NCBI GenBank assembly: GCA_002687175.1
Contig: NYZP01000001.1
Coordinates: 149,607-213,606, forward strand
From: Parcubacteria group bacterium
GTDB taxonomy: Bacteria > Patescibacteriota > Patescibacteriia > Buchananbacterales > UBA6539
Reading direction: 5' to 3'
Length of the DNA stretch: 64,000 nucleotides
This document shows, piece after piece, positions 34,061 through 51,390 of the stretch. A program made the position numbers and the translations under genes. Numbering within the stretch: position 1 is the first letter of the stretch; the number at the start of each line of letters is the position of its first letter. The notes under the pieces are model-generated. The model saw nothing but the letters and a program-made list of their open reading frames with translations. It was not told the DNA's origin and searched no databases.

Positions 34061-35599
34061 CTAATTTTTAAGAGAATCTTTGATATAGGAAAAAGCCATG
34101 GATTCGGTCATAAATTCTACGGGTGCTTTATCGTCGGTCAAAGTTATCAGCTTGTCACTGTAATTTATTTTCTCGGTTTTTTCAATCATCACTAACGTTA
34201 AGTCAGATAATTCCGGATTGACTGTTTTATTACTGATCGAGTTAAAATCAAGCTCCGTCTGTGAGGCAGTTATTAAATAGTTCCAGCTATTGTCCGATAG
34301 CGAAGTTAAATAAGTATGATCGAAAACACTGGCAATAGTATTAGAAATTGAATTTAATAAATCTGACTGCCTAACGATAGAATTAACATTAATCGTAATC
34401 AAACCATTATCAGTTAGCCTGTCTTTAATTAGAGTCCAAAATTCTTGGGTGGTTAAAGTCCAGGGTATATACAATTCCTTTTGATAAGCATCAACTATTA
34501 CTAAGTCATATTTGTCTTCGCTAACAGAATTACGTAAAAACATCCGTCCATCTTGATTATAAATATTAACTTTTGAGCTATCTAATCCAAAATATTCTTC
34601 GCCAGCATTAATTACTTTTTGATCAATTTCAACTCCATCTATAATAATTTCATCTTGAAAAAAATAGTTTAACTGACTGGCAATTGTTCCACCAGCTAAA
34701 CCAATGACCAAAACTCTCTTTTGACTATTTGTTTCTATTAAATATGGCAGTAGATTAATATTATCAAAATAGTTACCGGTTAAAATACTGCCATGACGTT
34801 TAACTGACTGGACTCCGCCACCTTCATTATAAACCAAAAATCTGTCTCCCTGGTTGTTCTGAAAAACACTAATATATTGATAGGCTGATTCATCTTCAAA
34901 AATTAAATCGGCGTTATCTTTAATACCAAGCTGGGCCGAATAAAATGCCAGAAATAAAAATAGTAATATACTGCCTAAACGAAACTTTATATTAATAAAA
35001 CCTAAGCTTCCTAAAACAATTAACACCATAGCAAAAATATTAATCGTCGCCTTGGTGCCTAAAACCGGAATAAAATACAAAGTTGGTAAAAAGGTTCCTA
35101 AAATACTACCGATGGTTGAAACGGCAAAAATTGTACCGGCCATTTGTCCAATATTTTCTTTCTCTAGGAGAGAATATAATTTAATTATAAAAGGACTAAC
35201 CATTCCTAAAATAAACAAGGGGATTGCAAAAAGAATTACTGTTACAATTAACGATGAAATAAAAATTACTACAGATGCTGTTTGTAAATTAGAAATTCCT
35301 AAATCAACAAATGAGGTCAGTGGCTTTATCACCATTGGAATGACTAAAAGTAAAATTCCAGCCAGCAGAATTAATTTAAGTAAAATATTAATCTGGGGTT
35401 TTTTATCAGCTAATTTTCCACCTAGGTAATAACCCAAAGATAAAGCAATTAAAACTACGCCAATAATATTTGTCCAAACAAATAATGATGTCCCGAAGTA
35501 TGGTGCTAACAACCTGGAAGCTGATATTTCCATGGCCATAATCGCAAAGCCGGCAACAAAGCTGATAAGTAACAAAAGACGAGGTGATGATTTAATCAT
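34061..35599 (-). CDS. Spermidine-synthase-like (aminopropyltransferase fold) protein fused to an N-terminal polytopic membrane domain
   Basis: VLVIGLAGGT...DGVEID and a ~7-TM N-terminus. Confidence 0.55.
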   Translation of the reverse strand: MIKSSPRLLLLISFVAGFAIMAMEISASRLLAPYFGTSLFVWTNIIGVVLIALSLGYYLGGKLADKKPQINILLKLILLAGILLLVIPMVIKPLTSFVDLGISNLQTASVVIFISSLIVTVILFAIPLFILGMVSPFIIKLYSLLEKENIGQMAGTIFAVSTIGSILGTFLPTLYFIPVLGTKATINIFAMVLIVLGSLGFINIKFRLGSILLFLFLAFYSAQLGIKDNADLIFEDESAYQYISVFQNNQGDRFLVYNEGGGVQSVKRHGSILTGNYFDNINLLPYLIETNSQKRVLVIGLAGGTIASQLNYFFQDEIIIDGVEIDQKVINAGEEYFGLDSSKVNIYNQDGRMFLRNSVSEDKYDLVIVDAYQKELYIPWTLTTQEFWTLIKDRLTDNGLITINVNSIVRQSDLLNSISNTIASVFDHTYLTSLSDNSWNYLITASQTELDFNSISNKTVNPELSDLTLVMIEKTEKINYSDKLITLTDDKAPVEFMTESMAFSYIKDSLKN

Positions 35600-35631
35600 A
35601 AGTTAATAATATAAATCTTCATATTTTAATA

Positions 35632-36072
35632 TTAAACTAAAATATAATCAAAGTAAAAAATTTTTAATATATGACGTCGGCAAACCGCAGTCTTTGGCTC
35701 CTTGAACCACTGTTTTTCGGTACTGGTGCTAGGTAGATCAATCTTTTCCTGATTTTTTTTGAAATAAACAATTGCTTCAATCACTTTACCCTCGTTGTTT
35801 TTTATTTTGAAATTATTTCTACCATAATAACCAGGGTAGCCTTCATGAAAATCAAGAGCGTCTAAATCATTTTGACTAATATCGTAAACTCCTCCCCAAA
35901 CCACATCACCAGGAGACTTTATAATATTTGCTACTGAGCCATCCCATTTTTTAGCATAACCTTCATAAACAAATTTAAAATCTTCAAGCAAGGCCGGCAT
36001 CATAAATTTACTGTCAAGACAACGCTCTTTGATTTGCTTATGATTTAAATTTGATCCGTAGGCAAAATATAA
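35632..36072 (-). CDS. Gamma-glutamylcyclotransferase/AIG2-like protein
   Basis: MLYFAYGSNLNHKQI is typical of the GGCT/AIG2 fold. The ORF-track extension to 36129 is probably upstream read-through. Confidence 0.45.
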   Translation of the reverse strand, partial: LYFAYGSNLNHKQIKERCLDSKFMMPALLEDFKFVYEGYAKKWDGSVANIIKSPGDVVWGGVYDISQNDLDALDFHEGYPGYYGRNNFKIKNNEGKVIEAIVYFKKNQEKIDLPSTSTEKQWFKEPKTAVCRRHILKIFYFDYILV

Positions 36073-36476
36073 CATAAAAAATATAAAAAAAGAAGAACTA
36101 AGCTCCCAACTACGGTCTAGTCCACCCACATCGGCGTTTTTGGGAGGTTTTTGGGGTATAAATTCGGAGTGAAATAACGCAGTACGGTCGGGGTAAATGA
36201 GACAAATGAGACAGTATAAAAAGGAACAAAATATAAATCAAAAATGTAATACAACAAAAAGCCCCAAATAAGCGTAATTTGACAGTATTTAAAAAGTGGT
36301 AGATAATTAATACAACGGTAGCGATGTCCTCTTTTACGAAAGAGGATCAACATCAAAAGCCATTCTGATAAGTCAGAGAAATTTCTCGACTTTTTAGTTT
36401 GGCTTTTTTTCGTGGAGTTTTTTCTTCTCATTAATTAAGTCATCTAAAAAGACTAATTAATAACTTTTTCAAAGAT

Positions 36477-37802
36477 ATGAAAGAGAAAAAACTTAAGGTG
36501 GTGCAGGTATCCACCAACCAACTAAAACCTGCGACTTATAATCCAAGGAAATGGAATCAAAGTGCAATTGATCAGTTAACCGAAAGCGTTAAGCGATTCG
36601 GATTAGTTGATCCAATCATCTGTAATTCCTCTCCTAAACGCCATAACATTGTTATTGGCGGACATTTTCGTTTAAAGGTCGTCAAAGATTTAAAAATCAA
36701 AGAAGTTCCAGTTGTCTATTTAGACATCCCCGACATTAAAAAAGAAAAGGAACTTAACCTCCGTCTTAATAAAAATGTCGGGGAGTTTGATATGGATTTG
36801 TTAGCCAAATTTGATGAGAACTTCCTATCCGACCTTGGTTTCAACAGTGAAGATTTAGATGAGATATTTGAGATTGAAGATAATCCGGAAAAATTTGATC
36901 TCAAAAAAGAGCTAGAAAAACTAGACATCAAAAAAATTGAGATTAAAAAGCAAGATATTTGGAAACTTGGTAATTCAAAATTAATGTGTGGTGATAGCAC
37001 CATAGAAGCTGATGTGTTAAAGCTCATGGCTGGCGAAAAAGCGGTTATGTGCTTTACGGATCCGCCTTATATTTTAGATTATCTTCGTGGGAAAAAGAAA
37101 AATGGTAAGGTGACGGAAGGATTTGGCCTAAAACGAGATCGAAAGTATCTTGAAACTGATGTCCTGCCCGACAATTTCACTGAACTTTGGATGAATAGTA
37201 TTTCTAAAATTCAGAAAAAAGATTTCTCAATTATTATTTTTGAAAATCCTAAAAATCTCCGTACTATTTGGAACGAAATGGAAAAACACTGGAAGTATCG
37301 CAATACTATTGTTTGGCATTTACCAAATCGTGTTCAGGGATTTGCCGCAAAGTATAAATTCTTCAATAAGCACGACATCGCTCTTGTTGGCACCAAAGGC
37401 AAGACGCCAATAAATATTGAACCCGAAGATCCTTTATTTCAAGAAGAATATGAGAATGCATTATTTGCCACCTCGGGTACTCCTACATGGGAATCATATA
37501 AAAAAGGAAAGAAATATTGCCCAACTGATTTCATTGACTATAAAGCCAGCGATGAAAAAAGCTCCGGCCAAGGAATTATCTTTGGTACTAAGCCAATAGA
37601 AATATTAATTCCCTATATCAAAGTTCTCACTAAGAGAGATGATTTAATTGTGGAACCTTTCGGCGGAAGTGGATCAACTCTTATTGCGGCCACAAAAATG
37701 AAACGGAGATGCTATATCATGGAGAAATCCCCTGTCTATGCTGAGGTAATTAAAAAACGTTGGGAAAAACTAACTGGTCAAAAAGCAAGGAGGGTTAAAT
37801 AA
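36477..37802 (+). CDS. ParB-like nuclease domain fused to an N6-adenine/N4-cytosine DNA methyltransferase
   Basis: N-terminal ParB-like domain (..NQLKPATYNPRKW..FGLVDPIIC..IVIGGHFRLKV). MTase motif IV TDPPY and motif I VEPFGGSGST. Confidence 0.75.
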   Translation: MKEKKLKVVQVSTNQLKPATYNPRKWNQSAIDQLTESVKRFGLVDPIICNSSPKRHNIVIGGHFRLKVVKDLKIKEVPVVYLDIPDIKKEKELNLRLNKNVGEFDMDLLAKFDENFLSDLGFNSEDLDEIFEIEDNPEKFDLKKELEKLDIKKIEIKKQDIWKLGNSKLMCGDSTIEADVLKLMAGEKAVMCFTDPPYILDYLRGKKKNGKVTEGFGLKRDRKYLETDVLPDNFTELWMNSISKIQKKDFSIIIFENPKNLRTIWNEMEKHWKYRNTIVWHLPNRVQGFAAKYKFFNKHDIALVGTKGKTPINIEPEDPLFQEEYENALFATSGTPTWESYKKGKKYCPTDFIDYKASDEKSSGQGIIFGTKPIEILIPYIKVLTKRDDLIVEPFGGSGSTLIAATKMKRRCYIMEKSPVYAEVIKKRWEKLTGQKARRVK

Positions 37803-37803
37803 T

Positions 37804-38256
37804 ATGGAAAAAGAAATAAATCCTACAATTCAAAAACGACAGGATAAAAATAAGGGTTTAATTATTGAGCAGTTAAAGAAAACTCCAGTGATTGAAATTG
37901 CTTGTAAAAAAGTTGGTATTGGTCGAGCCACCTATTACAGATGGAAAAAGGATGATATAGATTTCGCCGAAAAAGCAGGGATATCCCTTGAAGATGGACT
38001 GGGCATGATTTCCGATTTGGCTGAATCAAAACTTATTAGCGCTATTCAAGATGAAAATATGACAGCGATAATTTTCTGGCTTAAATCACATCGCAATGCT
38101 TATAGGAACAGGGTTGAACTAAGTACTTCTGAAAAACCAAAAGAAGAACTAACTCCCGAGCAACAACAAGCAGTAGAAAAAGCTCTTACCCTAGGTCAAT
38201 TGACCGACGATCATAAAGAAAATCAAGATGACAAAGATAATATCCCCAACAAATAA
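37804..38256 (+). CDS. Phage terminase small-subunit-like HTH protein
   Basis: IEIACKKVGIGRATYYRWKKDD HTH. It sits immediately upstream of the large-terminase gene, with a 29-bp overlap. Confidence 0.45.
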   Translation: MEKEINPTIQKRQDKNKGLIIEQLKKTPVIEIACKKVGIGRATYYRWKKDDIDFAEKAGISLEDGLGMISDLAESKLISAIQDENMTAIIFWLKSHRNAYRNRVELSTSEKPKEELTPEQQQAVEKALTLGQLTDDHKENQDDKDNIPNK

Positions 38257-39673
38257 TATCCTAGAAAAAATATATAAGGATAGATTAATTAGGTCATCAG
38301 TAACTGAAAAAAGTCATCAGTGGTTTTTTCATATTTATTTTGGCAATTATGTTAAATATCAGACTGCTCCATTCCAGCAAGAGATATTAAAATTAACTGA
38401 GGATCAAACTTTACCCTTGGTAGCTATAATGGCATTTCGTGGATCAGGTAAATCAACAATTGTTACCTGCTCCACGGCCATTTGGTCTGTGCTTGGATCA
38501 CCAAATAAAAAATATGTGGTCATCCTAACTAAAACCCAGCAACAAGCTCGACAACATTTAGCTAATATAAGGTACGAGTTTGAAAATAATGAGTTACTAA
38601 GAAATGATTTTGGCCCATTTGAAGACAAAAATTCTGAGTGGACTTCTTCATCTTTAACTCTGCCAAAATACGGAGCTAAAATCATTGCTGTTAGTGCTGA
38701 GCAAGGAATTCGTGGATTAAGACATAGAGAGTACCGACCAGATCTACTATTGGTGGATGATGTTGAAGATGATCAAAGTGTTAGAAACAAAGACAGCAGA
38801 GACAAAACTTATGATTGGTTTGTGCGAGAAGTAATACCTATTGGCGATGAAAATACCAAAATTATAGTTGTGGGAAATTTACTTCACCGAGATTCACTGA
38901 TGATGAGAATTAAAAATGATATTAGTAAAAAAAATAGAGAAGGAATATTTAAATCCTACCCAATTATAAATGATGATAAATTAATTAGTTGGCCAGCAAA
39001 ATTTCCATCATCAAAAGAAGTGGAAGATCTTAGATTAAAGATTGGTGATGAAAAAGCTTGGAAACAAGAATATGTTTTAAAAATTGTCTATGATGATAGT
39101 AGAGTAATACGACCAGAATGGATTCAGTATTATAATGAAATAAAAGAACATGAAGATAGTCTAAGATACAATGCTATCGGTGTTGATCCAGCTATATCTG
39201 AATCCACTTATGCTGATTACACCGGCATCGTATCAGCTAAGGTTTATGGCAATAGAGAAAATCTGAGGATATATATCCTACCCAATCTAATAAACCAAAA
39301 GATGAATTTCCCAAAATCAGTGGAAACCATAAAAAGCTTATACAAAACCATGAGCCATTGTGAAACCACTAAAGTTTTTGTTGAAAGTGTAGCTATGCAG
39401 GGAGCTGTTGCTCAAGCACTTAATCACGAGGGTATCCCCGCGGAAGAAATTAGAATCAAGGGTGATAAGAGAGCTAGACTAAGTGTATTGGGTGGAAATA
39501 TCCAAAAAGGCCAAATTCTATTTCCCAAAATTGGAGCTGAAGAATTAATAAATCAAATGATTGATTTGGGAACACATGGCCATGATGATTTGGCAGATGC
39601 ATTTAGTTTGTTGTGTAATAAGCTAATAGAAGAAGATGAGAATTTCACTATGCCAGATTTATATATTCTTTGA
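38228..39673 (+). CDS. Phage terminase large subunit
   Basis: Walker A AFRGSGKST, Walker B LLLVDDVED and a C-terminal RNaseH-like nuclease region. Confidence 0.75.
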   Translation: MTKIISPTNNILEKIYKDRLIRSSVTEKSHQWFFHIYFGNYVKYQTAPFQQEILKLTEDQTLPLVAIMAFRGSGKSTIVTCSTAIWSVLGSPNKKYVVILTKTQQQARQHLANIRYEFENNELLRNDFGPFEDKNSEWTSSSLTLPKYGAKIIAVSAEQGIRGLRHREYRPDLLLVDDVEDDQSVRNKDSRDKTYDWFVREVIPIGDENTKIIVVGNLLHRDSLMMRIKNDISKKNREGIFKSYPIINDDKLISWPAKFPSSKEVEDLRLKIGDEKAWKQEYVLKIVYDDSRVIRPEWIQYYNEIKEHEDSLRYNAIGVDPAISESTYADYTGIVSAKVYGNRENLRIYILPNLINQKMNFPKSVETIKSLYKTMSHCETTKVFVESVAMQGAVAQALNHEGIPAEEIRIKGDKRARLSVLGGNIQKGQILFPKIGAEELINQMIDLGTHGHDDLADAFSLLCNKLIEEDENFTMPDLYIL

Positions 39674-39683
39674 TTACTTATAA

Positions 39684-40070
39684 TCATAAAGACTTTTTTA
39701 TATCTTCATCAGACCAACCAGCATTTACTAGATTCTCTTTGATTTCTTTTCTCTTCATTCCAGAGGCCTGTGCCTTGCTAACATAATCTTGAAGTGCGCT
39801 TGAAATATTTTCCTCTCTATTTAAAAAAGTTGACCCGGATTGATTATCATCCTTAAACTTATCAATAATACTAAAAAATATTGAGCCAATAGCATATGAA
39901 ATAAAAATAATAACTACCCCTCCTATACCAACAGTACAAACAGTAGCTATAAATAGAAAACCAAAAACACTTTGAATATTACCAAGAAATATTAATAAAA
40001 TAACAACGAGAATTAAAAATCCAACAAGGGTTTTTAATAACTTACTCTTTGGCTTATTTATGGAATTCAT
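39684..40070 (-). CDS. Small membrane protein
   Basis: Two hydrophobic helices. No motif. Confidence 0.3.
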   Translation of the reverse strand: MNSINKPKSKLLKTLVGFLILVVILLIFLGNIQSVFGFLFIATVCTVGIGGVVIIFISYAIGSIFFSIIDKFKDDNQSGSTFLNREENISSALQDYVSKAQASGMKRKEIKENLVNAGWSDEDIKKSL

Positions 40071-40080
40071 ATTTTATATA

Positions 40081-40890
40081 TTAATTTTTATTATCTAATA
40101 TAATTTCCCAATACCTAACGAAAGTAATTACTAGTGCCAAATACAAAGGAATGGCAAATAAAACCTCAAATGCCAATACGGTCCCCGGAACCATAAAACC
40201 CATAAAATTATTTGTTAAACTTTCACCATATTGCCTAACTCCAGTTGCAACTAAAAAATTTTCAATTGGTATAGTAATAACAGTTAATAGAACAAGGTAT
40301 GCTATAAATCTTTTAACTAAATTTTCCTTAATCATAAAATAATCAACAATAGAAGTTGAAACATAAATCAAAAACACCCAACCAAGTGTGATTATAAAGC
40401 TAATATCATGATAGATATATGACCAATTTGGTAGATTGGCATTAATCACCATTGGTTCTATCATAACCTCATATAACAACACACCAATTATTGCAATAAT
40501 TAAATTTCTAATCCACTTATTTTTATTGATTGGTAAAATTATTTTTTTCGATAAATGTAAATCCCAATACTTATAAAACGCAATTATTAGACTCATAAAT
40601 ACTGGAATATAATAAAGTGACTCAATTGGAAGTTTTAAAAGTGGAATGTTAATATTAATTAGAATATTAGCCACTTCTGGGGCATAAGTTCTAATCCCAA
40701 TACCAACAACCCATGCCTCACCCAATAAACCCAAAATTGTCGCAATTACTAAATAAACAAAAAATCTAGTTCTTTCTTTAATAGTCTTGAAAAAATAATC
40801 ACCAGCAATTACTGCCAAAGATATCAAACCAGTCCATCCTAAAGTTAAAATCCAACTAACATCATAATAAACATAAGCAAAACGACCCAT
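40081..40890 (-). CDS. Polytopic membrane protein
   Basis: About eight hydrophobic helices. Confidence 0.35.
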   Translation of the reverse strand: MGRFAYVYYDVSWILTLGWTGLISLAVIAGDYFFKTIKERTRFFVYLVIATILGLLGEAWVVGIGIRTYAPEVANILININIPLLKLPIESLYYIPVFMSLIIAFYKYWDLHLSKKIILPINKNKWIRNLIIAIIGVLLYEVMIEPMVINANLPNWSYIYHDISFIITLGWVFLIYVSTSIVDYFMIKENLVKRFIAYLVLLTVITIPIENFLVATGVRQYGESLTNNFMGFMVPGTVLAFEVLFAIPLYLALVITFVRYWEIILDNKN

Positions 40891-41546
40891 ATTATAACTA
40901 TAACCATGACATTAGCGGCAATGTCGACTGGAACTAAATTAACATACCCACTGAGCTTAGGGAAACGCACTACATCATTAGTGGAGTTTAACGCTTTAAT
41001 AAAGGCTCCTAAAGCAAGATAAAAGCCGCTAAAATTAATAATTTCACCAGTCCTGCTGTGCCCGGTTAAAATTGATGGTCTAAAAATTGTACTCGAAACT
41101 TTAGAATTTATGAGAATCTCTTCGGCCTTACTTTTATCTTCCTCATACTGGTTGCTAAAAGGCTCTTGATTTGGTTTATAAAGATACGCTGTACTAGCAT
41201 AGGATAATTGTATGTCGGAATTATTAATGTGCTTAATAAGATTCATCATCATTCTTTGATTAGAATCTTTGGCGTCATGAAAATGAACGATACCAGCGCA
41301 GTGAATAATTGCGCTGGCATTTTTTATCACAAAAGAGGGCAGCGGGTCTTTTACAAGGTCACAAAAGACAACTTCTTTAAAACTGGATAAATTATTAAAA
41401 CTAGTCTTTAACTTGCCTAAGCTCTCCTGAGAGCTTAACACGGGAACTACTCCATAGTTTTTAGATAGTAGCTTTCTTCCAATCTCCGCTCCAAGGTTGC
41501 CCGTCACTCCTGTAAGAATTATATTCATATCTGTATATTTTACCAA
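40845..41546 (-). CDS. NAD(P)-binding Rossmann-fold protein (short epimerase/SDR-like)
   Basis: ILTGVTGNLGAEIGRKL glycine-rich motif. Confidence 0.4.
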   Translation of the reverse strand: MVKYTDMNIILTGVTGNLGAEIGRKLLSKNYGVVPVLSSQESLGKLKTSFNNLSSFKEVVFCDLVKDPLPSFVIKNASAIIHCAGIVHFHDAKDSNQRMMMNLIKHINNSDIQLSYASTAYLYKPNQEPFSNQYEEDKSKAEEILINSKVSSTIFRPSILTGHSRTGEIINFSGFYLALGAFIKALNSTNDVVRFPKLSGYVNLVPVDIAANVMVIVIIWVVLLMFIMMLVGF

Positions 41547-41591
41547 AAAATCGCCTTATTGGCGACTTATCTGGCATTTTTAGATGTCGGG

Positions 41592-42434
41592 TTAATCAAA
41601 CTCGCGAATTCTTTTTGAGAACTCCTTACCCACAACTTCATTGCCCAGTGCACGTGCGCGGTCATTAACATAGTAGTAATCTCTAATTTTCTTCCACTCT
41701 AGGTCACTATCAATCATGTCTAAATTGTACGCCAAGTGATCGGAGTACCCAGGAAAAATTGTTCCAACATGCCATTTAGGAACTCTACTCGGCAGCAAAT
41801 CATTAACGTGTTGAATTAAAGTGCTAGTGCAGTTATGAGTCAGCGTATTATAAAATTCTGGTTTTTGCCTTAATTCATTTGTGCGTTCCAACATGGCAAC
41901 GAATACATGACGCATTCTCTCCGGAGTAGTTTTGATTGGATAAAGATGAACAGCTTCATTTTCTCGATAATTTGTACGAACTTTAATAATATCATTTTCA
42001 TCACCAATTTGGTAAATAATTTCATAGGCGTTAGCCAAACCAGTCAACGGTGAGTACTCTTCTCCTTCTTCCATTCTGGTCTCAACTGAAACGGAGATAT
42101 ATTCATCATCAGTAAATCCAAAACTAACAAAAGTGTGAGCAATACCTCTCCATGACTTAAAAGGATTTACTCCGAGCCAAGCTGATTCAATGTTACTTAA
42201 ATCAAAAGTCTTATCGTAGTAATCGGGAGTAATATCTAAATGATCTTTGCCATACTTAAAATTACGAATATTGTGGATTGTCACCAAATCTCCGTCAAAA
42301 GTAGTGTAAGGCATTATTGAATCTTCAATCGCCCAATTGCGATCATTGGATGGTCGCCTTAGAGAAATAAAAAAAGATCCTACAATGACTCCTACTACCA
42401 AAATTAACATAATGGAAACAATTGTTTTCTTCAT
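41592..42434 (-). CDS. Membrane-anchored hypothetical protein (DUF4105-like?)
   Basis: N-terminal TM helix. No catalytic motif recognised. Confidence 0.3.
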   Translation of the reverse strand: MKKTIVSIMLILVVGVIVGSFFISLRRPSNDRNWAIEDSIMPYTTFDGDLVTIHNIRNFKYGKDHLDITPDYYDKTFDLSNIESAWLGVNPFKSWRGIAHTFVSFGFTDDEYISVSVETRMEEGEEYSPLTGLANAYEIIYQIGDENDIIKVRTNYRENEAVHLYPIKTTPERMRHVFVAMLERTNELRQKPEFYNTLTHNCTSTLIQHVNDLLPSRVPKWHVGTIFPGYSDHLAYNLDMIDSDLEWKKIRDYYYVNDRARALGNEVVGKEFSKRIREFD

Positions 42435-42469
42435 AATTCTATTTTACCAAAAAACCCATGATTAAGCGA

Positions 42470-42497
42470 TTTGACCGTTGATTGGACTCGAACCAAA
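42470..42497 (-). other. Orphan tRNA 3'-end-like fragment (T-arm plus acceptor 3' strand), possible att-site remnant
   Basis: The minus strand reads TTGGTTCGAGTCCAATCAACGGTCA (GGTTCGAGTCC T-loop motif) with no matching 5' half nearby. Confidence 0.35.
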
Positions 42498-42522
42498 AAT
42501 TTTTACTAAAATAAGCCATCCG

Positions 42523-42594
42523 CTCCGAGGGCCGGATTCGAACCGGCAACCAATTGATTAACAGTCAACTGCTCTACCATTGAGCTACCTCGGA
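42523..42594 (-). tRNA. tRNA-Asn(GTT), copy A
   Basis: Minus strand reads TCCGAGGTAGCTCAATGGTAGAGCAGTTGACTGTTAATCAATTGGTTGCCGGTTCGAATCCGGCCCTCGGAG. Anticodon loop is CUGUUAA. Confidence 0.85.
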
Positions 42595-42683
42595 GCACAT
42601 GGCTCATTTTTTACTCTATTGCGCTATATTCTAATTTTAAAGTCTTTGACGGAAACCGGTCGGTCAGAAACGCTTCCGGTCTC

Positions 42684-42755
42684 CTCCGGGGGTCGGATTC
42701 GAACCGACAACCAATTGATTAACAGTCAACTGCTCTACCGTTGAGCTACCCCGGA
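42684..42755 (-). tRNA. tRNA-Asn(GTT), copy B (variant stems)
   Basis: Same fold with compensatory changes (CCCCGGA..GTCGG/CCGAC). Confidence 0.8.
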
Positions 42756-42845
42756 GCACATGGCTCATTTTTTTGCTCTACAAACTATATTTTAAATTTT
42801 CAAGCCCCTGACAGGAACCGGTCGCTTTGGAAAGCGTCCGATCTC

Positions 42846-42917
42846 CTCCGAGGGCCGGATTCGAACCGGCAACCAATTGATTAACAGTCAACTGCTCTAC
42901 CATTGAGCTACCTCGGA
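42846..42917 (-). tRNA. tRNA-Asn(GTT), copy C
   Basis: Identical to copy A. Confidence 0.85.
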
Positions 42918-42957
42918 ACTTAATTCTCCTTAATTACTTTTACCTTCTAAACCTTGA

Positions 42958-44220
42958 TTAATAATCTTTTAATTTACCAATCAAGTGATGTTTTTCAATC
43001 TTTTCTAGAGCCTTGGCCTCAATTTGTCTAATTCTTTCGCGAGTAACATCAAATTCTTGACCGACTTCTTCAAGGGTATGAGCGATTCCATCTTTCAAAC
43101 CAAAACGCATTTCTAAAATCTTTTGTTCTCGGGGAGTTAAGTCTTGGATAACATCAGTGACATAATCACGTAAAAGTTGTAAGGCCGCTACCCGGTCAGG
43201 AGTAATTGTTTTAACATCTTCGATGAAATCTTCAAGCGTGCTGTCTTCATCGTCTTCACCAACAGAAGTTTCAATTGAAATAGTATCCTGACTAATTTTA
43301 ATAATATGTAAAATTTTATCAAGTGGCTGGCTCATCTCAGCGGCAATTTCTTCTGGCAAAGGTTCCCGACCAAGATCTTGAATCAACTGTCGTTCTGCTT
43401 GCTTGAATTTATTAATCGTTTCCACCATATGCACTGGAATCCGAATTGTTCTTGATTGATCAGCCAAGGCTCTAGTGATCGCCTGGCGAATCCACCAGGT
43501 AGCATAAGTGGAAAATTTATATCCACGCCGGTAATCAAATTTTTCTACCGCTCGAAAAAGACCAATGTTACCTTCTTGAATCAAATCTAGCAATGATAAG
43601 CTTTTCCCGGTAAAACGTTTAGCAATAGAAACTACTAATCGTAAATTTGCTTCTATTAATTTTTTCTTAGCTTCCTTATCACCATGCTCAGATTTTTTAG
43701 CTAAATTAATTTCTTCATCTGCTTTAAGTAAAGACACTTTACCGATTTCTCGTAAATACATCTGGATTGAGTCAGCCGAGATATCTGATATATCAATTCT
43801 TTTTTTACCCTTTTTAGCAAGCCCAATTTTTTCTAATGCCTCAGATCTTTTTTCTTCAGTTTCTAAAAGTCCAGCTTCCGTTTCTACAACGCTTAAACCA
43901 AGTTTATCAATAGTAAATAAAAAATCCTCATACTGGTCAACATACTCCTCAATTTCGGGAAAAGCATGTAAGACCTCTACTTCAGTAATAAATCCTCTGG
44001 TGTTACCTTTTTTAATCAGTTTGTCAATATCTTCTTGATTAGAAGAAACTTTAACTTTAGTTCTTTTAGTAGAATCAGGCTTCTTTTTTTTAGCTGTGGT
44101 TTTTTTAGCTGTGGTTTTTTTGGTAGCTTTTTTTACCTTGCTTTTTGTAGTCTTTTTCAAAACTTTCTTCTTTTTAGTTACCTTTTTTGCCACTTTCTTG
44201 GTTGTATTTTTAGCAGGCAT
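42958..44220 (-). CDS. rpoD: RNA polymerase sigma factor RpoD (sigma-70) with a Lys/Thr-rich N-terminus
   Basis: Regions 2 to 4 including [14 protein letters not shown] and the region 4 HTH. Confidence 0.9.
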
Positions 44221-44227
44221 AAATATA

Positions 44228-46015
44228 TTATTCTAAAACATTTAACTGAGCAATGACTTGATTAAATTGCTCAATTAATTTTTTTACTTCTTCACTCTCT
44301 CCTTTGTTTTCCGCCGTTTTTATCTGTCCTTCAATTTCTTTAAGTTGAAAATTATAATGATTTTCTTTACAAAACTTAGTTGCTTTAATCAACTCATCTC
44401 TAATTATTTCTGAATCGAAATCAAAAAAATCCTTCTCTGCCAAGAGAACGAGTTTATCAGCAATGACATCGAGGCTGTCGGCTTTAAGTTTATTATGAAA
44501 TTCTTGATAATCAAAATTATCTATATTATTATCAATGTCTTCAGTATAGTAAATAATGAGCTTTTTGTAAAGGTCATTTAAACTATCATCAATAAATATT
44601 TCTGGTTCTAGGTTATCAATTAGATAAGGCAGATTTATCGGATATTTTAAAACCATGGCTAAAACCTGCTCCAACAACATTGTATTACGACTTTTAGTTA
44701 CCTGAACAGTGGCTTCAGTTTTTTCAGGAGATTTTTCTGGTTCTGATTTTGGTAAAGACTCACGTAAGATTGATTCAGTAACATTTAATAAGCTGGATAA
44801 TTTTTGTAGCCAATGGGTCTGTTCTATTTTGTTACTTATTTTGTTGATGATTGGCAACAATATTTTGGCGGCTTCTTTTTTACCCTCAACATTACCTAAA
44901 TTAATACGGTCTAAAGTTTGATCAAAGTAATAATCCATGATTGACTTAGCATTTTTATTAGCTTCTTCCCAAACCTTTTTATCAGCTTTAATAACATCGT
45001 CTGGATCTTTACCGTCAGGCAACACAATAATTTTAACATTTAGATCTTCAGATAAAGCTAAAGCAATGCCCCGCTTAGCGGCTGATTCACCGGCAACATC
45101 AGTGTCAAAAGCAATTTTAATATTTTTAGTATATCTTTTCAATAATTTAAGTTGATCTAAAGTAAAAGCCGTTCCTGATGCTGCAATAACGTTCTTTGTT
45201 CCAGCCTGCCAAGCAGCTAAAACATCCATTTGACCTTCAACCACAATGGCGTAATCATTTTTTTTAATATACTCCTTGGCTTTATCTAAATTATAAATAA
45301 CTAAACTTTTATTATAGACTAAAGTTTGTGGCGTGTTGATATATTTACCACCTTTTTCATCAGTTTTTAAAGCTCGGGCAGAAAAACCAACTGGACTACC
45401 ATGAGCATCATTGATCGGAAACATTAAACGACCACGGAACCGATCATAAAATCCTTGACCTCGTTCTTTCTTAACCGTTAAACCAGCTAAAAATATTTCT
45501 TGCTCATTGAAACCTTTACTCTTCAGATGGTTAAACATGTTACCCCAAGAATCATGAGCATAACCTAATTTAAATTCTTCCGTTGTTTCTTTATTAAGTT
45601 GACGATCATTAATTAAATATTCATTAATTTTCTTTGCCGATTCTGGCTTTAAATTCTCAGACCAAAATCTGGATGCCTCTTGGCAAATATCTAAAATCTT
45701 ATTCTTCTGACTGGCTAGCTTTGGATCTTGCGCTACCAACTTGACTCCAGCTTTTTGGGCTAACAGTCTTAAAGCCTCTGGAAAATCCATCCCTTCCATC
45801 TTCTGGACAAACGTAAAAATATCACCGCCTTCACTACAGCCAAAACAATGAAAAATTTGTTTGTCTTTAGAAACAACAAAAGATGGAGTTTTTTCATTAT
45901 GAAAAGGACATAGCGCTTTCCAGCTATTTGTTCCCGCTTGTTTTAGCCTAATATATTCTGAAACTAACTCAACTATATCAAGTCTATTTTTTATCTCTTC
46001 ACTTTGATTCGCCAT
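44228..46015 (-). CDS. dnaG: DNA primase
   Basis: Zinc finger [25 protein letters not shown] and a TOPRIM domain. Confidence 0.9.
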
Positions 46016-46123
46016 AAAAGTATTGTCATTGTACTCTAATTATCGTTATTTAGGCAAGAAGACTTTGACTAATTAGTGATTTTCTGCTTTAATAGTATAG
46101 TATTAAAAACTTTTCATAATAGA

Positions 46124-46185
46124 GTGGAGGGGTGCCCCCGGCAGCTTGCCCCGTTGAAGAACGGGGCCGGGGCAGGCTCCGTGGT
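46124..46185 (+). other. Degenerate GC-enriched tRNA-Ser-like fragment
   Basis: GGAGGGGTGCC...CTTG...GGGGCAGGCTCCGTGGTC shares its start and the CTCCGTGG block with the tRNA-Ser at 46544 but lacks a T-loop. Confidence 0.35.
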
Positions 46186-46208
46186 CTATAAATATTTATT
46201 AAGAACAA

Positions 46209-46247
46209 AGCGGAGGGGTGCCAGAGTGGTCGAATGGGACAGTCTTG
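46209..46247 (+). repeat. Exact 39-nt duplicate of the 5' half of tRNA-Ser(TGA), truncated inside the anticodon loop
   Basis: AGCGGAGGGGTGCCAGAGTGGTCGAATGGGACAGTCTTG is identical to 46541-46579. The copy ends after CTTG of the anticodon loop and is followed by two GC hairpins (CCCGCC-agag-GCGGG and TCCGCC-ttcg-GCGGA). Confidence 0.85.
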
Positions 46248-46295
46248 CCCGCCAGAGGCGGGTCCGCCTTCGGCGGAAAAACAACTACCTTGAGT

Positions 46296-46580
46296 ATGCC
46301 TTGCACTTATATTTTATATAGTAGGTCAACCAACAAATTTTATACTGGATCAAGCAGAGAAAAAGCCGCTAATAATCGTTTAAAATCACATAACGCCGGA
46401 AAAACTAAATCGACAAAAGCTGGCCGTCCCTGGATAATTATTCATCAAGAAAAATACCAAAATTATACTGATGCCAGAAAAAGAGAAATTTTTTTAAAAT
46501 CAGGTCAAGGACGCAAATATATTAAAACTTTAAACAGCAGAGCGGAGGGGTGCCAGAGTGGTCGAATGGGACAGTCTTGA
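46296..46580 (+). CDS. GIY-YIG nuclease family protein (~94 aa); its 3' end overlaps the 5' half of tRNA-Ser
   Basis: MPCTYILYSRSTNKFYTGSSREKAANNRLKSHNAGK...RPWIIIHQEKYQNYTDARKREIFLKSGQGRKYI gives the GIY...YIG...R...E...N pattern. Confidence 0.55.
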   Translation: MPCTYILYSRSTNKFYTGSSREKAANNRLKSHNAGKTKSTKAGRPWIIIHQEKYQNYTDARKREIFLKSGQGRKYIKTLNSRAEGCQSGRMGQS

Positions 46581-46630
46581 AAACTGTTGAGGCAGCAATG
46601 TCTCCGTGGGTTCGAATCCCACTCCCTCCG
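46544..46630 (+). tRNA. tRNA-Ser(TGA)
   Basis: GGAGGGG-TG-CCAGAGTGGTCGAATGGG-ACAGTC-TTGAAAA-..., long variable arm, GTGGGTTCGAATCCCAC T-arm. No encoded CCA. Confidence 0.85.
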
Positions 46631-46656
46631 CTCTGCTGTTTATTTAACTTATAAGA

Positions 46657-46748
<92 letters not shown>

Positions 46749-46766
46749 TTTTACATTCAGCGAAAT

Positions 46767-48119
46767 ATGGTAGACTCAGCAATAGAACGCGCGCAAAACG
46801 AAAACGAAAACTACGATCGCCTTATTGGCGAGAAAAAAATATTAGAATACCTCAATACTGTATTGAAAGGAGAAAAACCTGAATCGTTTATTGCGCGGCC
46901 AATGAGCCAAGATTGCAAAGTAGCTGTAATGATTCCTGCCTATAATGAAAGTGCGTCAAATATCTTGCGTTCTTTGTCATCTTTAGCAGAACAAGAAGAA
47001 GTCGACCCTAATTTATTTGAGGTTGATTTGGTTGTAAACAATCGCAGAATTGATGCCGAGCAAAACACTCCTGCGTTTTTAGCAAATCAAGAATCAATAA
47101 GATTAATAAAATACATAAATGGCGAATCTCAAGAAATACCAGAAGGTTTAACTACTGAACAAGCTGAACAGATAGAAAAAATAAGAAAGGCGGAAATAAA
47201 AATCAACGTCATTGATAAATCTTCAGTAAATACATCAGATGAAGAAAATAATGTTGGCGTCGCAAGAGATAGGGCTGGGGCTGAAATCCTTGATAGGTTT
47301 ATGAAATCGTCTGGCAACACAGAGGGCGCTCTTGCAATCACTGATTGCGACTGCACATTTTCCCGCAATTTTATAAAGTCGTTAATTCAGTCATTTGAAC
47401 AACATAAAATCAACGGGGTTTCTGGTAATTTAGAGTTTGAAATTGATTCCTCATTGCCCAACCAAGAGTTGATTAAAAAAGCTTTTGATATTTATATGGG
47501 TAAGAACGGGCCCAAACAAGATTATTCAGGTGAGCCTAATTTCAAAATTCAAAAAGAAGGTGCCCTGCAAGCCGGTGCGAATATGGCTGTAACCGCAAAG
47601 GCGTGGGCAATGGTTAATGGAATGCCTAGAATCGCTGGCGGTGAAGATATTCGCTTTGGCAAAAATATTGAAGATTTACGGGGACAAGTAGCAAAAAATT
47701 ACGACTACACTATTACATCCCTTATACGCGTTTCAGAGCGTACCGGCTTGCAGGGCAATGGAAGAATAGTTAAAAAAATAAAAGAATCCGTGGACGATTT
47801 TGTTGCGGGTAAAACAGATAGAATCGTTGTTGAAGATAGAGAAATGGTTGATAAATTTTTTAATGGAGTTTTACGAGCAAATGAAAGTAAGGCGTTAAAA
47901 GGAAAATTATTTTTAGATTTAATGAAAGAATGCAATTTTAAACAAAATAATATTCCTGAGGCAGAATACGATGAACTGGCAAGTGAAATTAATACAGAAT
48001 TGGAAAAACCAAGGTCGGAGCAAGAATTGAAAAAGATTGAAAGATTGATTTTAGAGAAAATTTATCCTTACTATCCAGAAAGAGATGTAACTGATAAAAT
48101 AGTAAAGAAAGAATCTTAG
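46767..48119 (+). CDS. Glycosyltransferase family 2-like protein
   Basis: VAVMIPAYNESASNILRSLSSL GT2 N-terminal motif and ITDCDC. Start taken at the first ATG after the tRNA, since the ORF-track start at 46689 overlaps the tRNA. Confidence 0.5.
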   Translation: MVDSAIERAQNENENYDRLIGEKKILEYLNTVLKGEKPESFIARPMSQDCKVAVMIPAYNESASNILRSLSSLAEQEEVDPNLFEVDLVVNNRRIDAEQNTPAFLANQESIRLIKYINGESQEIPEGLTTEQAEQIEKIRKAEIKINVIDKSSVNTSDEENNVGVARDRAGAEILDRFMKSSGNTEGALAITDCDCTFSRNFIKSLIQSFEQHKINGVSGNLEFEIDSSLPNQELIKKAFDIYMGKNGPKQDYSGEPNFKIQKEGALQAGANMAVTAKAWAMVNGMPRIAGGEDIRFGKNIEDLRGQVAKNYDYTITSLIRVSERTGLQGNGRIVKKIKESVDDFVAGKTDRIVVEDREMVDKFFNGVLRANESKALKGKLFLDLMKECNFKQNNIPEAEYDELASEINTELEKPRSEQELKKIERLILEKIYPYYPERDVTDKIVKKES

Positions 48120-51168: not shown

Positions 51169-51293
51169 GGGCTTGTAGCTCAGGGGTAGAGCGTCTGAGA
51201 CCAACATTTTAATCAATCAGTGAGGGTACCCGATCTGTGCGATGATGTTGGAAAATCAGAAAGTCAGGGGTTCAAATCCCTTCAGGCCCACCA
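51169..51293 (+). tRNA. tRNA (Ile-like acceptor and T-arm) with a ~50-nt intervening sequence in the anticodon loop; anticodon unresolved
   Basis: GGGCTTG-TA-GCTCAGGGGTAGAGC-G-TCTGA-[57 nt: GACCAACAT...ATGTTGGAAAA]-TCAGA-AAGTC-AGGGGTTCAAATCCCTT-CAGGCCC-A-CCA. The insert has a 7-bp stem CCAACAT/ATGTTGG. Followed by TTTTTT. Confidence 0.55.
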
Positions 51294-51310: not shown

Positions 51311-51390
51311 GCTGGGGTAGCTCAGTGGTAGAGCTGTTGACTTCTTCGGATAGTTGATGGTCGGGGGTTCAAATCCCTCCTCCAGCTCCA
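51311..51390 (+). tRNA. Atypical tRNA, candidate tRNA-Arg(UCG) with an apparently extended (8-bp, G:U-rich) anticodon stem
   Basis: GCTGGGG-TA-GCTC-AGTGGTA-GAGC, anticodon loop CUUCGGA, GGGGG-TTCAAAT-CCCTC T-arm, CTCCAGC-T-CCA. There are 28 nt between the D and T stems where 22-23 are expected. Direct repeat GTTGA...GTTGA. Confidence 0.45.

What the first reader, a model, noticed from the sequence alone, without database searches (positions are those of the whole stretch)
36130..42957. Phage packaging module island abutting a triplicated tRNA-Asn and an orphan tRNA 3' fragment
A plus-strand trio runs against the local minus-strand gene flow: a ParB-domain DNA methyltransferase, a small-terminase-like HTH protein and a large terminase. 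Four minus-strand membrane or hypothetical genes follow. The island ends at the 3' side of three tandem tRNA-Asn(GTT) copies (161-162 bp periodicity) and a stray tRNA T-arm/acceptor fragment at 42470-42497. Terminase genes without capsid genes, next to a tRNA array, suggest a degraded prophage or phage-satellite-like integrative element. The tRNA triplication could come from serial integration.
Basis: partly seen in the sequence, partly recalled or inferred. Interest (0 to 1): 0.7.

Follow-up and report, generated by a model that had tools for sequence, protein, structure and literature searches.

The report
Capsid-less terminase island beside tRNA-Asn
This is an intact, selectively maintained phage DNA-packaging module (ParB-methyltransferase, small and large terminase) from a widespread, apparently undescribed family of capsid-less islands that insert next to tRNA genes in Patescibacteria and probably spread by borrowing the capsids of other phages; this copy has lost its recombinase.

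Summary
The + strand carries ParB_N+N6_N4 methyltransferase (36477-37802), a small-terminase-like HTH protein (37804-38256) and a large terminase (38228-39673). Four minus-strand genes follow, then three tRNA-Asn(GTT) 161-162 nt apart and a T-arm-like relic.

It is not a decaying prophage. dN/dS against a 90%-identical copy elsewhere is 0.04. The same trio recurs in about 120 loci across Patescibacteria without portal or capsid genes. It is usually followed by a large serine recombinase. An opposite-strand tRNA lies downstream with its 3' end facing the element (42 tRNAs, against 1 on the same strand and 3 upstream). Complete members are 14-17 kb, bounded by att repeats, and carry defence or metal-resistance cargo.

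The window copy lacks recombinase, repressor and att repeat. It sits at the same dnaG-rpoD-tRNA-Asn locus as a complete member. It keeps the terminal DNA motif of one subfamily (36114-36221), which contains co-varying direct repeats.

The best reading is a phage-satellite-like island with its own terminase, here unable to excise. This function is inferred, not shown. The tRNA triplication is a tandem duplication of whole genes, not integration scars. I rate it a new variant of a known kind, of moderate to high interest.

The parts
36100..36225 (+). Left terminus of the element. It is a ~120-nt terminal DNA motif (model match 36114-36221) with a repeated box TACGGTC (36111-36117 and 36183-36189) and a tandem 9-mer AAATGAGAC x2 (36195-36212).
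   Evidence: Homology with the L001 copy starts sharply at ~36100. Iterated nhmmer finds the motif in over 30 loci on the trio's strand. In L098 and L043 it lies immediately inside the left att repeat. Both repeat pairs co-vary between elements. RNAalifold finds no conserved RNA structure (0 pairs).
36279..36307 (+). Near-consensus sigma-70-type promoter TTGACA-17-GATAAT for the trio operon.
   Evidence: It matches 11 of 12 consensus positions and is conserved in L001. This is a consensus match only.
36328..36345 (+). Hairpin in the predicted 5' leader (CCTCTTT-UACG-AAAGAGG).
   Evidence: L001 has CCTCTCT-TACG-AGGGAGG, so the pairing is kept through changes on both arms. This comparison rests on two sequences only.
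36477..37802 (+). ParB_N-domain DNA methyltransferase (beta-class N6A/N4C; DPPY and FGGSG motifs).
   Evidence: Pfam, PHROG and PADLOC MTase_II hits. PDB sequence hits to ParB, Spo0J and CcrM. It lies directly upstream of TerS/TerL in 78 of 85 loci with enough flank. dN/dS is 0.044.
37804..38256 (+). Small-terminase-like HTH protein (150 aa).
   Evidence: PHROG TerS hits. All 46 family members hit phrog_4044. It is present in 124 of 137 loci immediately before TerL. dN/dS is 0.039. The structure could not be tested (pLDDT 53).
38228..39673 (+). Large terminase, with an ASCE ATPase (Walker A AFRGSGKST, Walker B LLLVDDVED) and an RNase-H-like nuclease.
   Evidence: phrog_38 5.7e-77. The catalytic residues are invariant in 32 homologs. 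The fold matches PhiV-1, T4, D6E, T7, HK97 and Sf6 terminases. dN/dS is 0.039.
39674..39680 (.). Right edge of the conserved 3.58-kb module. Homology with L001 stops 7 nt after the TerL stop codon.
   Evidence: In the family, the position after TerL is where variable cargo or the serine recombinase follows.
39684..42434 (-). Four genes in the cargo slot between TerL and the tRNA: 128-aa TM, 269-aa TM, SDR/epimerase-like, DUF4105/Lnb_N. Whether they are cargo or host genes is unresolved.
   Evidence: Pfam. None has a homolog in any of the other loci. DUF4105 has a sparse, cross-phylum distribution. No close relative exists for an empty-site test.
42440..42522 (-). Trailer of tRNA-Asn copy 3, carrying the T-arm-like relic (42470-42497). 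Probable island/host junction.
   Evidence: 92% identical to the tRNA-Asn trailer of L005. Similarity ends near 42440 in both genomes. The T-arm motif is statistically unexpected by chance.
42523..42917 (-). Three tandem tRNA-Asn(GTT) genes. Their 3' ends face the island. This is the family's attachment-site type.
   Evidence: Copies 1 and 3 are identical, and copy 2 has compensatory stem changes.

Best explanation
The window carries a recombinase-less, repressor-less derivative of a large family of capsid-less integrative islands found across Patescibacteria (CPR).

Complete members are 14-17 kb. They insert next to or into the 3' end of a tRNA gene using a large serine recombinase. Many carry an S24/LexA-type repressor. 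They carry variable defence or metal-resistance cargo. They always keep the operon ParB-methyltransferase, small terminase, large terminase.

The most likely function is that of a phage satellite. After induction the island excises. Its own TerS/TerL recognise a site on the island DNA and pump that DNA into procapsids supplied by a co-infecting helper phage. A real phage with the same terminase clade exists. The terminal repeat motif is a candidate recognition site. The methyltransferase may protect or license that DNA.

The window copy (36100 to about 42440) sits at the dnaG-rpoD-tRNA-Asn locus. It can no longer integrate or excise on its own, but its packaging operon, promoter and terminal motif are intact and under strong purifying selection.

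Shown: family membership, architecture, tRNA targeting, absence of virion genes, and selection. Inferred: helper-dependent packaging, the role of the terminal motif and the role of the methyltransferase.

I put the structural and family claim at about 0.85 and the satellite mechanism at about 0.45. The single confidence figure reflects both.
For: Identity of the three genes.

The trio recurs as a block with unrelated flanks:
-, including contigs of 361-437 kb and a complete 1.19-Mb Saccharibacteria chromosome.
- Clustering of 137 loci gives TerL 137, ParB-MTase 125, TerS 124 and large serine recombinase 85.
- Of 54 trio loci with at least 6 kb downstream, 42 have the recombinase downstream.

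tRNA targeting:
- 42 downstream opposite-strand tRNAs, against 1 same-strand and 3 upstream, over about 0.7 Mb on each side.
- The recombinase lies between TerL and the tRNA in 28 of 30 loci.
- att direct repeats of 13-37 nt give elements of 14-17 kb. One example is a 21-nt repeat inside tRNA-Asn in L111.
- L089 is a complete element at dnaG-rpoD-tRNA-Asn.

No virion genes:
- Accessory genes are ThsB-TIR, SMODS, caspase-like, SNase, RM, RT and Cu-ATPase.
- Portal, protease and capsid profiles from control phage L046 hit nothing else among 1817 ORFs.
- A PHROG screen of 80 ORFs from five att-bounded elements shows no recurrent virion family.
- The control works: L046 has TerS, TerL (42% identical), portal, protease and HK97-type capsid.

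The window copy is functional, not decaying:
- dN/dS is 0.04 at dS 0.55-0.73.
- The upstream 375 nt are about 96% identical to L001.
- There is a promoter.

The left end equals the subfamily's terminal motif. The motif is kept in 4 of 6 recombinase-less loci.
Against: - No experiment or read-level evidence shows packaging, excision or a helper phage. No circular contigs were found.
- No replication module was identified. The small ORFs upstream of the MTase have no annotation.
- The window copy has no recombinase, repressor or att repeat, so its right boundary is inferred.
- An empty site could not be found, because the nearest relatives are at most 66% identical and not syntenic.
- The terminal motif is found in only about one third of recombinase-bearing loci with comparable flanks.
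- The protein that binds the motif could not be assigned.
- The tandem 9-mer alone is not specific to the family.
- The family's neighbourhoods are rich in defence genes, which also fits a defence-related role for the trio.
Confidence: 0.55

Rival explanations
1. The region is a degraded prophage remnant. It is the last surviving packaging genes of a once-complete temperate phage integrated at tRNA-Asn, now decaying.
For: Terminase genes occur without virion genes next to a tRNA. The window has no recombinase or att repeat.
Against: dN/dS is about 0.04 in all three genes, and the upstream non-coding region is even better conserved. About 120 independent loci show the same capsid-less trio. These include att-bounded complete elements of only 14-17 kb filled with defence cargo. 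Random decay would not leave the same three genes every time.
Confidence: 0.05
2. The trio is a defence or restriction-like module rather than a packaging module. The methyltransferase marks self DNA. The HTH protein and the ATP-dependent terminase nuclease attack or mis-package unmodified invading phage DNA. The islands are defence islands that happen to be mobile.
For: The operon layout (MTase, DNA-binding protein, ATPase-nuclease) resembles R-M logic. Neighbourhoods are dense in RM, TIR, SMODS, OLD, McrB-like and retron-type RT genes. Satellites are known to interfere with helpers through packaging proteins (established knowledge of SaPI/PICI biology).
Against: PADLOC recognises only the MTase. 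TerL and TerS match no defence model. TerL is a full-length terminase with a 42%-identical relative sitting next to a portal in a real phage. The trio is the invariant core linked to the recombinase, the att sites and a terminal motif, whereas the defence genes are the variable part.
Confidence: 0.15
3. The 3.58-kb unit (terminal motif, leader and trio) is itself an autonomous mobile cassette. It moves without the serine recombinase, for example by terminase-nuclease-initiated recombination or homing. The four minus-strand genes and the tRNAs are then simply host DNA.
For: W and L001 share exactly 36100-39680 at 90% identity, with unrelated DNA starting within 0-10 nt on the right and sharply on the left. 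Nine of 54 well-flanked loci lack any recombinase.
Against: The left edge coincides with the terminal motif that abuts att repeats in complete recombinase-bearing elements. The right edge coincides with the family's cargo insertion point just after TerL. There are no terminal inverted repeats or target duplications at the cassette ends. The window copy lies in the canonical orientation and distance from an opposite-strand tRNA, at a locus used by a complete member.
Confidence: 0.1
4. The module is a domesticated packaging module kept by the host. When a phage infects, the chromosomal TerS/TerL start headful packaging in situ from the terminal motif. This transfers adjacent host DNA (tRNA-Asn, rpoD, dnaG) in a lateral-transduction or GTA-like way.
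For: There is strong purifying selection on a copy that cannot excise. The terminal motif is retained in recombinase-less copies. The motif and operon point towards the host genes. Lateral transduction by prophages and PICIs is documented (PMC12829572, found).
Against: There is no direct evidence. Recombinase-less copies are a minority (9 of 54). The same selection signature is expected if the copy is mobilised in trans by a sibling element's recombinase, or lost its recombinase only recently.
Confidence: 0.1

Closest known systems
Phage-inducible chromosomal islands (SaPIs / PICIs)
   Same: They are 10-17 kb site-specifically integrated islands with a repressor, an integrase, packaging gene(s) and accessory or defence cargo. 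They have no virion genes and are spread by hijacking helper-phage capsids.
   Different: PICIs use tyrosine integrases, encode only TerS (or Rpp/Ppi-type redirectors), and have a primase-replicase plus ori. Here the integrase is a large serine recombinase. Both TerS and TerL are encoded, together with a ParB-methyltransferase. No replication module was found. The hosts are Patescibacteria. Helper dependence is untested.
Capsid-forming PICIs (cf-PICIs)
   Same: They are satellites that encode their own complete terminase (TerS plus TerL).
   Different: cf-PICIs also encode portal, major capsid, protease and head-tail connector proteins and borrow only tails. None of these is present here.
Temperate phages with large serine integrases and a ParB-MTase/TerS/TerL packaging block (phrog_498 / phrog_38 contexts); control phage L046
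   Same: The terminase clade is shared (42% TerL identity to L046) and the gene order TerS then TerL is the same. MTase genes next to terminase genes are common in phages.
   Different: In real phages, portal, protease and capsid genes follow TerL directly. In this family a recombinase or cargo follows. Cultured-phage TerLs are at most 27% identical.
Phage P1 pac site controlled by adenine methylation
   Same: In P1, a packaging site made of short repeated elements is cleaved only when methylated by a Dam-type enzyme the phage also encodes. Here an MTase is fused to the operon, and short co-varying repeats lie at the element end. This comparison rests on my own knowledge and is a lead only.
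   Different: No methylation motif, cleavage or binding was tested. The protein/repeat association was inconclusive.
tRNA-targeting genomic islands / integrative elements
   Same: Insertion is at the 3' side of tRNA genes, with short direct repeats that include the tRNA 3' end, and with variable cargo.
   Different: Classical islands use tyrosine recombinases. In the window copy the repeat and the recombinase are missing.

Membership tests
Large terminase (TerL) of tailed phages | N-terminal ASCE ATPase with Walker A and Walker B/catalytic Glu | tested here: met
   AFRGSGKST and LLLVDDVED are present. K75, S76, D177, D178 and E180 are invariant in 32 homologs.
Large terminase (TerL) of tailed phages | C-terminal RNase-H-like nuclease with conserved acidic residues | tested here: met
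   Terminase_6C scores 31.1 bits against a 22.6-bit cutoff. D320, D454 and D457 are invariant.
Large terminase (TerL) of tailed phages | Two-domain terminase fold | tested here: met
   The AF2 model has pLDDT 86. The top 41 Foldseek PDB hits are all large terminases, best 7e-19.
Large terminase (TerL) of tailed phages | Encoded next to portal and capsid genes | tested here: not met
   No portal, protease or capsid gene occurs in the window or in about 120 related loci. These genes are present in control phage L046.
Small terminase (TerS) | Small protein with an N-terminal HTH encoded immediately upstream of TerL, matching TerS profiles | tested here: met
   It overlaps the TerL start. PHROG TerS hits. 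All 46 members hit phrog_4044. The Pfam HTH_Tnp_1_2 hit is 1 bit under its cutoff.
Small terminase (TerS) | Oligomeric ring architecture and sequence-specific pac binding | not testable with these tools
   The single-sequence model has pLDDT 53. There is no PDB relative.
Prophage (intact or degraded) | Virion structural and lysis genes, or their pseudogenes | tested here: not met
Prophage (intact or degraded) | Relaxed selection or pseudogenisation in a remnant | tested here: not met
   dN/dS is 0.039-0.044 at dS 0.55-0.73.
PICI/SaPI-type phage satellite | Site-specific integrase and att sites | tested here: inconclusive
   The family meets this with a serine recombinase rather than a tyrosine one (42 of 54 loci; att repeats). 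The window copy does not: it has no recombinase and no att repeat.
PICI/SaPI-type phage satellite | Master repressor | tested here: inconclusive
   An S24/LexA-like repressor lies upstream in 23 of 58 loci. It is absent from the window.
PICI/SaPI-type phage satellite | Own replication module (primase/rep plus ori) | tested here: not met
   None was recognised among recurrent genes. The small ORFs c7, c14, c18 and c28 have no annotation.
PICI/SaPI-type phage satellite | Packaging gene(s) without virion genes, at a size of about 10-17 kb | tested here: met
PICI/SaPI-type phage satellite | Induction by, and encapsidation in particles of, a helper phage | not testable with these tools
   This needs virome or experimental data. 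A related phage terminase clade exists.
cf-PICI | Own capsid, portal, protease and connector genes | tested here: not met
tRNA-targeting integrative island | Inserted at the 3' side of a tRNA gene whose 3' end faces the element | tested here: met
   In the window, tRNA-Asn is on the minus strand 2.85 kb after TerL. In the family the counts are 42 against 1 against 3. L089 uses the same host locus.
tRNA-targeting integrative island | Direct repeat of the tRNA 3' region at the far end | tested here: not met
   The window has no repeat of 12 nt or more. The feature is met in L111, L078, L098, L043 and L105.
Known anti-phage defence systems (PADLOC) | All components match models of one system | tested here: not met
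   Only generic MTase_II hits. TerL and TerS have none.

The most novel reading that the evidence does not exclude
Patescibacteria harbour a large, undescribed class of phage satellites. These carry a complete terminase holoenzyme, a ParB-methyltransferase and a terminal iteron-like recognition region, but no capsid genes. In recombinase-less copies such as this one, the module may start packaging in situ. It would then ferry neighbouring chromosomal genes (tRNA-Asn, rpoD, dnaG) into helper capsids. That would be a built-in lateral-transduction device in organisms with very little known gene-transfer machinery. A sub-hypothesis is that the co-varying 9-mer repeats are the methyltransferase's targets and gate terminase cleavage, as at the P1 pac site.
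Probability: 0.3. Interest if true: 0.8.

Novelty: new variant of a known kind. Interest (0 to 1): 0.6.

Why it matters
Few phages of CPR/Patescibacteria have been described, and little is known about their other mobile elements or how these tiny-genome epibionts exchange genes. This family is conserved across the phylum (more than 2,600 TerL homologs). It combines a serine integrase, a complete terminase and defence cargo without any capsid. If it works as inferred, it would extend the phage-satellite concept to CPR. It would explain many 'viral' calls in CPR bins, since IMG/VR lists dozens of these as viral contigs. It would also identify a route for spreading defence and metal-resistance genes.

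The finding offers concrete tests: packaging termini at the terminal motif, the methylation motif, and repeat-swap binding assays. For annotation, a lone terminase in a CPR genome should not be scored as a prophage.

Tried and rejected
1. Search for a tRNA-Asn-derived att repeat at the left boundary. None of 12 nt or more was found.

2. Rfam scan of 35000-47500 at E<=1. It returned only tRNAs and sub-threshold chance hits, such as YrlA spanning two tRNAs.

3. Structured-RNA hypothesis for the highly conserved upstream block. RNAalifold gives 0 conserved pairs for the 21-sequence motif alignment. The RNA reading is rejected in favour of DNA sites. Only a small leader hairpin shows compensation, and that rests on two sequences.

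4. Empty-site test. The nearest relatives of the host are at most 66% identical and not syntenic.

5. An assembly break at the TerL 3' end in ERZ11848503 looked like polymorphism. The two contigs simply abut with a 3-nt overlap at low coverage, so I do not use it as evidence.

6. Single-protein scan of genome contigs.

7. Which protein reads the 9-mer repeats. The result was inconclusive: 33 class-specific ParB-MTase columns for the GTGAC class (n=3), and none for the GTTAC class (n=4).

8. Reciprocal search of the bare 18-mer in viral contigs. There were 22 hits, and only two (contigs already in my set) carry the trio. Many others look like coding NET repeats. The 9-mer pair alone is therefore not diagnostic.

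9. Circular or DTR contigs. None was found.

10. AF2 model of the small protein without an alignment. It was unusable (pLDDT 53).

11. Defence-system membership through PADLOC. Only generic MTase hits.

12. Literature. Six full-text searches found no description of this island family (papers read). Absence from the held library is not proof of novelty.

Full report
OBSERVATION

The ORFs are as described. The + strand operon has three genes.
- 36477-37802 carries ParB_N (5e-10) and N6_N4_Mtase (2.2e-20), and matches phrog_498 at 6e-78.
- 37804-38256 is a 150-aa HTH protein that hits PHROG small-terminase families. Its Pfam HTH_Tnp_1_2 hit is 1 bit under the cutoff.
- 38228-39673 matches phrog_38 large terminase at 5.7e-77 and Terminase_6C above its cutoff.

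The three genes are separated by 1 nt and overlap by 29 nt, respectively. The TerL Walker A, Walker B and nuclease acidic residues are invariant across 32 homologs. An AlphaFold model (pLDDT 86) has large terminases as its top 41 PDB fold hits.

The four minus-strand genes are two TM proteins, an SDR/epimerase-like protein and a DUF4105/Lnb_N protein.

Three tRNA-Asn(GTT) genes lie at 42523-42594, 42684-42755 and 42846-42917, spaced 161 and 162 nt. Three independent assemblies confirm them.

The 'orphan' T-arm (GGTTCGAGTCC, 42484-42494) is more than chance. The pattern occurs 8 times in the window against 0.14 expected. It is not a callable tRNA.

SOURCE ORGANISM

Flanking proteins are 100% identical to a marine 'Parcubacteria group bacterium' MAG. 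The source is TARA_SAMEA2619974 scaffold_6, 242 kb. The next relatives are at most 66% identical and not syntenic. An empty-site comparison was therefore impossible.

THE TRIO IS A RECURRENT, SELF-CONTAINED MODULE

TerL has more than 2,600 homologs. A plateau near 50% identity spans many Patescibacteria lineages, including contigs of 280-437 kb.

The closest copy (L001, 95% aa) shares only window 36102-39680 at 90% nucleotide identity. Everything outside differs. More distant copies again show ParB-MTase, a ~145-aa protein and TerL with unrelated neighbours. One of these lies on a complete 1.19-Mb Saccharibacteria chromosome.

I collected 136 related loci, called ORFs and clustered them. The counts were TerL 137, ParB-MTase 125, small protein 124 and a fourth family in 85 loci. 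The fourth family is a large serine recombinase (Resolvase, Recombinase, Zn-ribbon). It usually lies downstream of TerL on the same strand.

Among non-redundant loci with enough flank:
- 78 of 85 have the trio intact.
- 42 of 54 have the recombinase downstream.
- 23 of 58 have an S24/LexA-like repressor upstream.
- 9 of 54, including the window, have no recombinase.

THE FAMILY TARGETS tRNA GENES

Across about 0.7 Mb on each side of TerL, 42 tRNAs lie downstream on the opposite strand with their 3' end facing the element. Only 1 lies downstream on the same strand, and 3 lie upstream. The first downstream tRNA is Ser (8), Gln (6), Asn (5), Trp (4) or another. The recombinase lies between TerL and the tRNA in 28 of 30 loci, often ending 95-290 nt from the tRNA.

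Direct repeats link the tRNA 3' region to a site 6-7 kb upstream of TerL:
- L043: 37 nt.
- L098: 30 nt.
- L111: 21 nt, inside tRNA-Asn.
- L105: 16 nt.
- L078: 15 nt.
- Two tRNA-Glu loci share a common core.

These repeats give element sizes of 14-17 kb.

L089 is a complete element located at dnaG-rpoD-(3 kb)-tRNA-Asn. This is the same host locus as in the window.

NO VIRION GENES

Recurrent accessory genes are:
- ThsB-type TIR, SMODS cyclase, caspase-like protease, 8xMP, SNase and an OB-fold/zinc-ribbon protein;
- type I, IIG, III and ISP R-M components, and a retron-like RT;
- Cu/heavy-metal ATPase clusters.

As a positive control, L046 (TerL 42% identical) shows TerS, TerL, portal (1e-119), protease/scaffold and HK97-type capsid (6e-90). 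Iterated profiles from those three virion proteins hit nothing else among 1,817 ORFs. A PHROG screen of all 80 ORFs of five att-bounded elements shows only MTase/ParB, TerL, serine integrase/invertase and repressor as recurrent families. That screen lists only the 25 most frequent families, so a rare singleton could have been missed.

Cultured-phage TerLs are at most 27% identical.

THE WINDOW COPY

It has no recombinase, repressor or other core gene anywhere in the 64 kb, and no att repeat.

It is not decaying. Against L001, dN/dS is 0.044, 0.039 and 0.039 for the three genes, at dS 0.55-0.73.

The 375 nt upstream of the MTase are about 96% identical, which is better conserved than the coding sequence. 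This block contains:
- a near-consensus promoter at 36279-36307;
- a leader hairpin at 36328-36345 with compensatory differences;
- at its 5' end, a ~120-nt motif (36114-36221).

Iterated nhmmer finds this motif in more than 30 loci. It is nearly always on the trio's strand and to its left. In L098 and L043 it lies immediately inside the left att repeat. Window ~36100 is therefore a genuine element terminus.

The motif has no conserved RNA structure. It has two sets of direct repeats that co-vary between elements:
- a tandem 9-mer, AAATGAGAC x2 in the window, with variants GTTAC, GTGAC and GGGAC;
- a box repeated ~72 nt apart in the window (~70-75 alignment columns across the family), TACGGTC in the window.

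This pattern is typical of cognate protein-binding DNA sites. The motif is kept in 4 of 6 recombinase-less loci, against 11 of 33 recombinase-bearing loci with comparable flanks. It therefore does not depend on the recombinase, and it marks a subfamily.

I could not assign the binding protein. The bare 18-mer is not specific to the family.

BOUNDARIES

The left boundary is ~36100. The conserved module ends at 39680, 7 nt after the TerL stop codon. In relatives, cargo or the recombinase begins at this point.

The four minus-strand genes sit in that cargo slot. None recurs in any other locus. DUF4105 has a sparse cross-phylum distribution. Whether they are cargo or host genes is unresolved.

On the tRNA side, the tRNA-Asn leader, gene and trailer are 92% identical to L005. 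Similarity ends near 42440 in both genomes, after a terminator-like hairpin. This is consistent with the variable region starting there.

tRNA ARRAY AND FRAGMENT

The repeat unit is a whole tRNA plus an 88-nt spacer. The spacer is homologous to the single-copy 5' leader in L005. Copies 1 and 3 are identical. Copy 2 has compensatory changes in the acceptor and T stems.

Integration in this family duplicates only 13-37 nt. The array is therefore a tandem gene duplication, not a set of integration scars. One low-coverage contig shows a single copy. This may be assembly collapse or real copy-number variation.

The T-arm relic lies in the trailer of copy 3, upstream of the terminator-like hairpin. 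It is shared with L005 but absent from four other tRNA-Asn-integrated loci. It is most simply a decayed tRNA 3' piece, possibly an old att scar. This is inference.

MECHANISM

Shown:
- membership of a family of tRNA-targeting, serine-recombinase islands with a ParB-MTase/TerS/TerL core and defence cargo;
- absence of virion genes;
- purifying selection on the window copy.

Inferred:
- the islands behave like phage satellites, excising and using their own terminase to load island DNA into helper procapsids;
- the terminal repeat region serves as the recognition (pac-like) site or an accessory site;
- the MTase protects or licenses the DNA.

For the window copy, self-excision is lost. It may be mobilised in trans, it may drive in-situ packaging, or it may have lost its recombinase only recently.

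The rivals are a degraded prophage, a defence module, an autonomous 3.6-kb cassette and a domesticated transduction device. They are weighed in the rival section.

COMPARISON AND NOVELTY

The closest known systems are PICIs/SaPIs and cf-PICIs.
- PICIs share the lifestyle logic, but they use tyrosine integrases, encode TerS only and have a replication module.
- cf-PICIs encode a complete terminase, but they also carry capsid genes.

Neither family's defining features are fully met. Six full-text searches and the papers read found no description of this family. This is not proof that none exists. I rate it a new variant of a known kind.

Noticed in passing
window 51169-51293 and 51311-51390: A tRNA-like gene with a 48-nt insertion in the anticodon region and an encoded CCA. 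It is missed by default ARAGORN, and intron mode calls it 'Ser(gga)', which is doubtful. It lies just upstream of an unusually long (80-nt) tRNA-Lys(CTT). It could be an intron-bearing tRNA in a CPR genome.
   Followed up: partly
window 42958-44220 (minus): The RpoD-type sigma factor has a ~60-residue lysine-rich N-terminal tail with repeated KKxTxKK units. The tail resembles histone H1, and the DNA there shows short direct repeats (family D2).
   Followed up: no
L143 (ERZ5402418) vs window 42523-42917: One low-coverage contig joins rpoD directly to a single tRNA-Asn and then the DUF4105 gene. This is either assembly collapse across identical copies 1 and 3, or real copy-number variation of the tRNA array.
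   Followed up: partly
L036/L039 and L037/L038 (same IMG/VR contigs); L092: Two TerL trios occur on a single contig, 17-28 kb apart. In L092, two serine recombinases lie in opposite orientation next to tRNA-Asn. This suggests tandem or repeated insertions of family members.
   Followed up: no
phage records MT838750, MT838538, MT838800, MT838779: Four ~5-kb unannotated 'Bacteriophage sp.' records from human faeces encode a TerL 22-26% identical to the window's. A TerL on so small a record is odd. They might be fragments or another kind of minimal terminase-bearing element.
   Followed up: no
window 35632-36129 (minus): The mechanical GGACT ORF starts at a GTG at 36129, inside the element's terminal motif. 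The conserved GGACT N-terminus (MLYFAYGSNL) suggests the real start is near 36075, so the gene does not overlap the island.
   Followed up: partly
window 36117-36431 (minus): The 104-aa ORF antisense to the conserved leader is low-complexity and is not called in L001. It is probably spurious.
   Followed up: partly
L150 (IMGVR_UViG_3300048586_000823) 1350-2126: A motif-like terminal sequence with the same tandem 9-mer lies next to a homolog of the unannotated c10 protein. c10 also lies just inside the terminal motif in L024. No trio occurs within 11 kb. It could be a related element type without a terminase.
   Followed up: no
L145/L160 (IMGVR_UViG_3300002092_002169, 15.4 kb): The 18-mer AAATGAGACAAATGAGAC, with identical flanking sequence, occurs at both ends of this contig in inverted orientation. 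This suggests terminal inverted repeats of an unrelated linear element.
   Followed up: no
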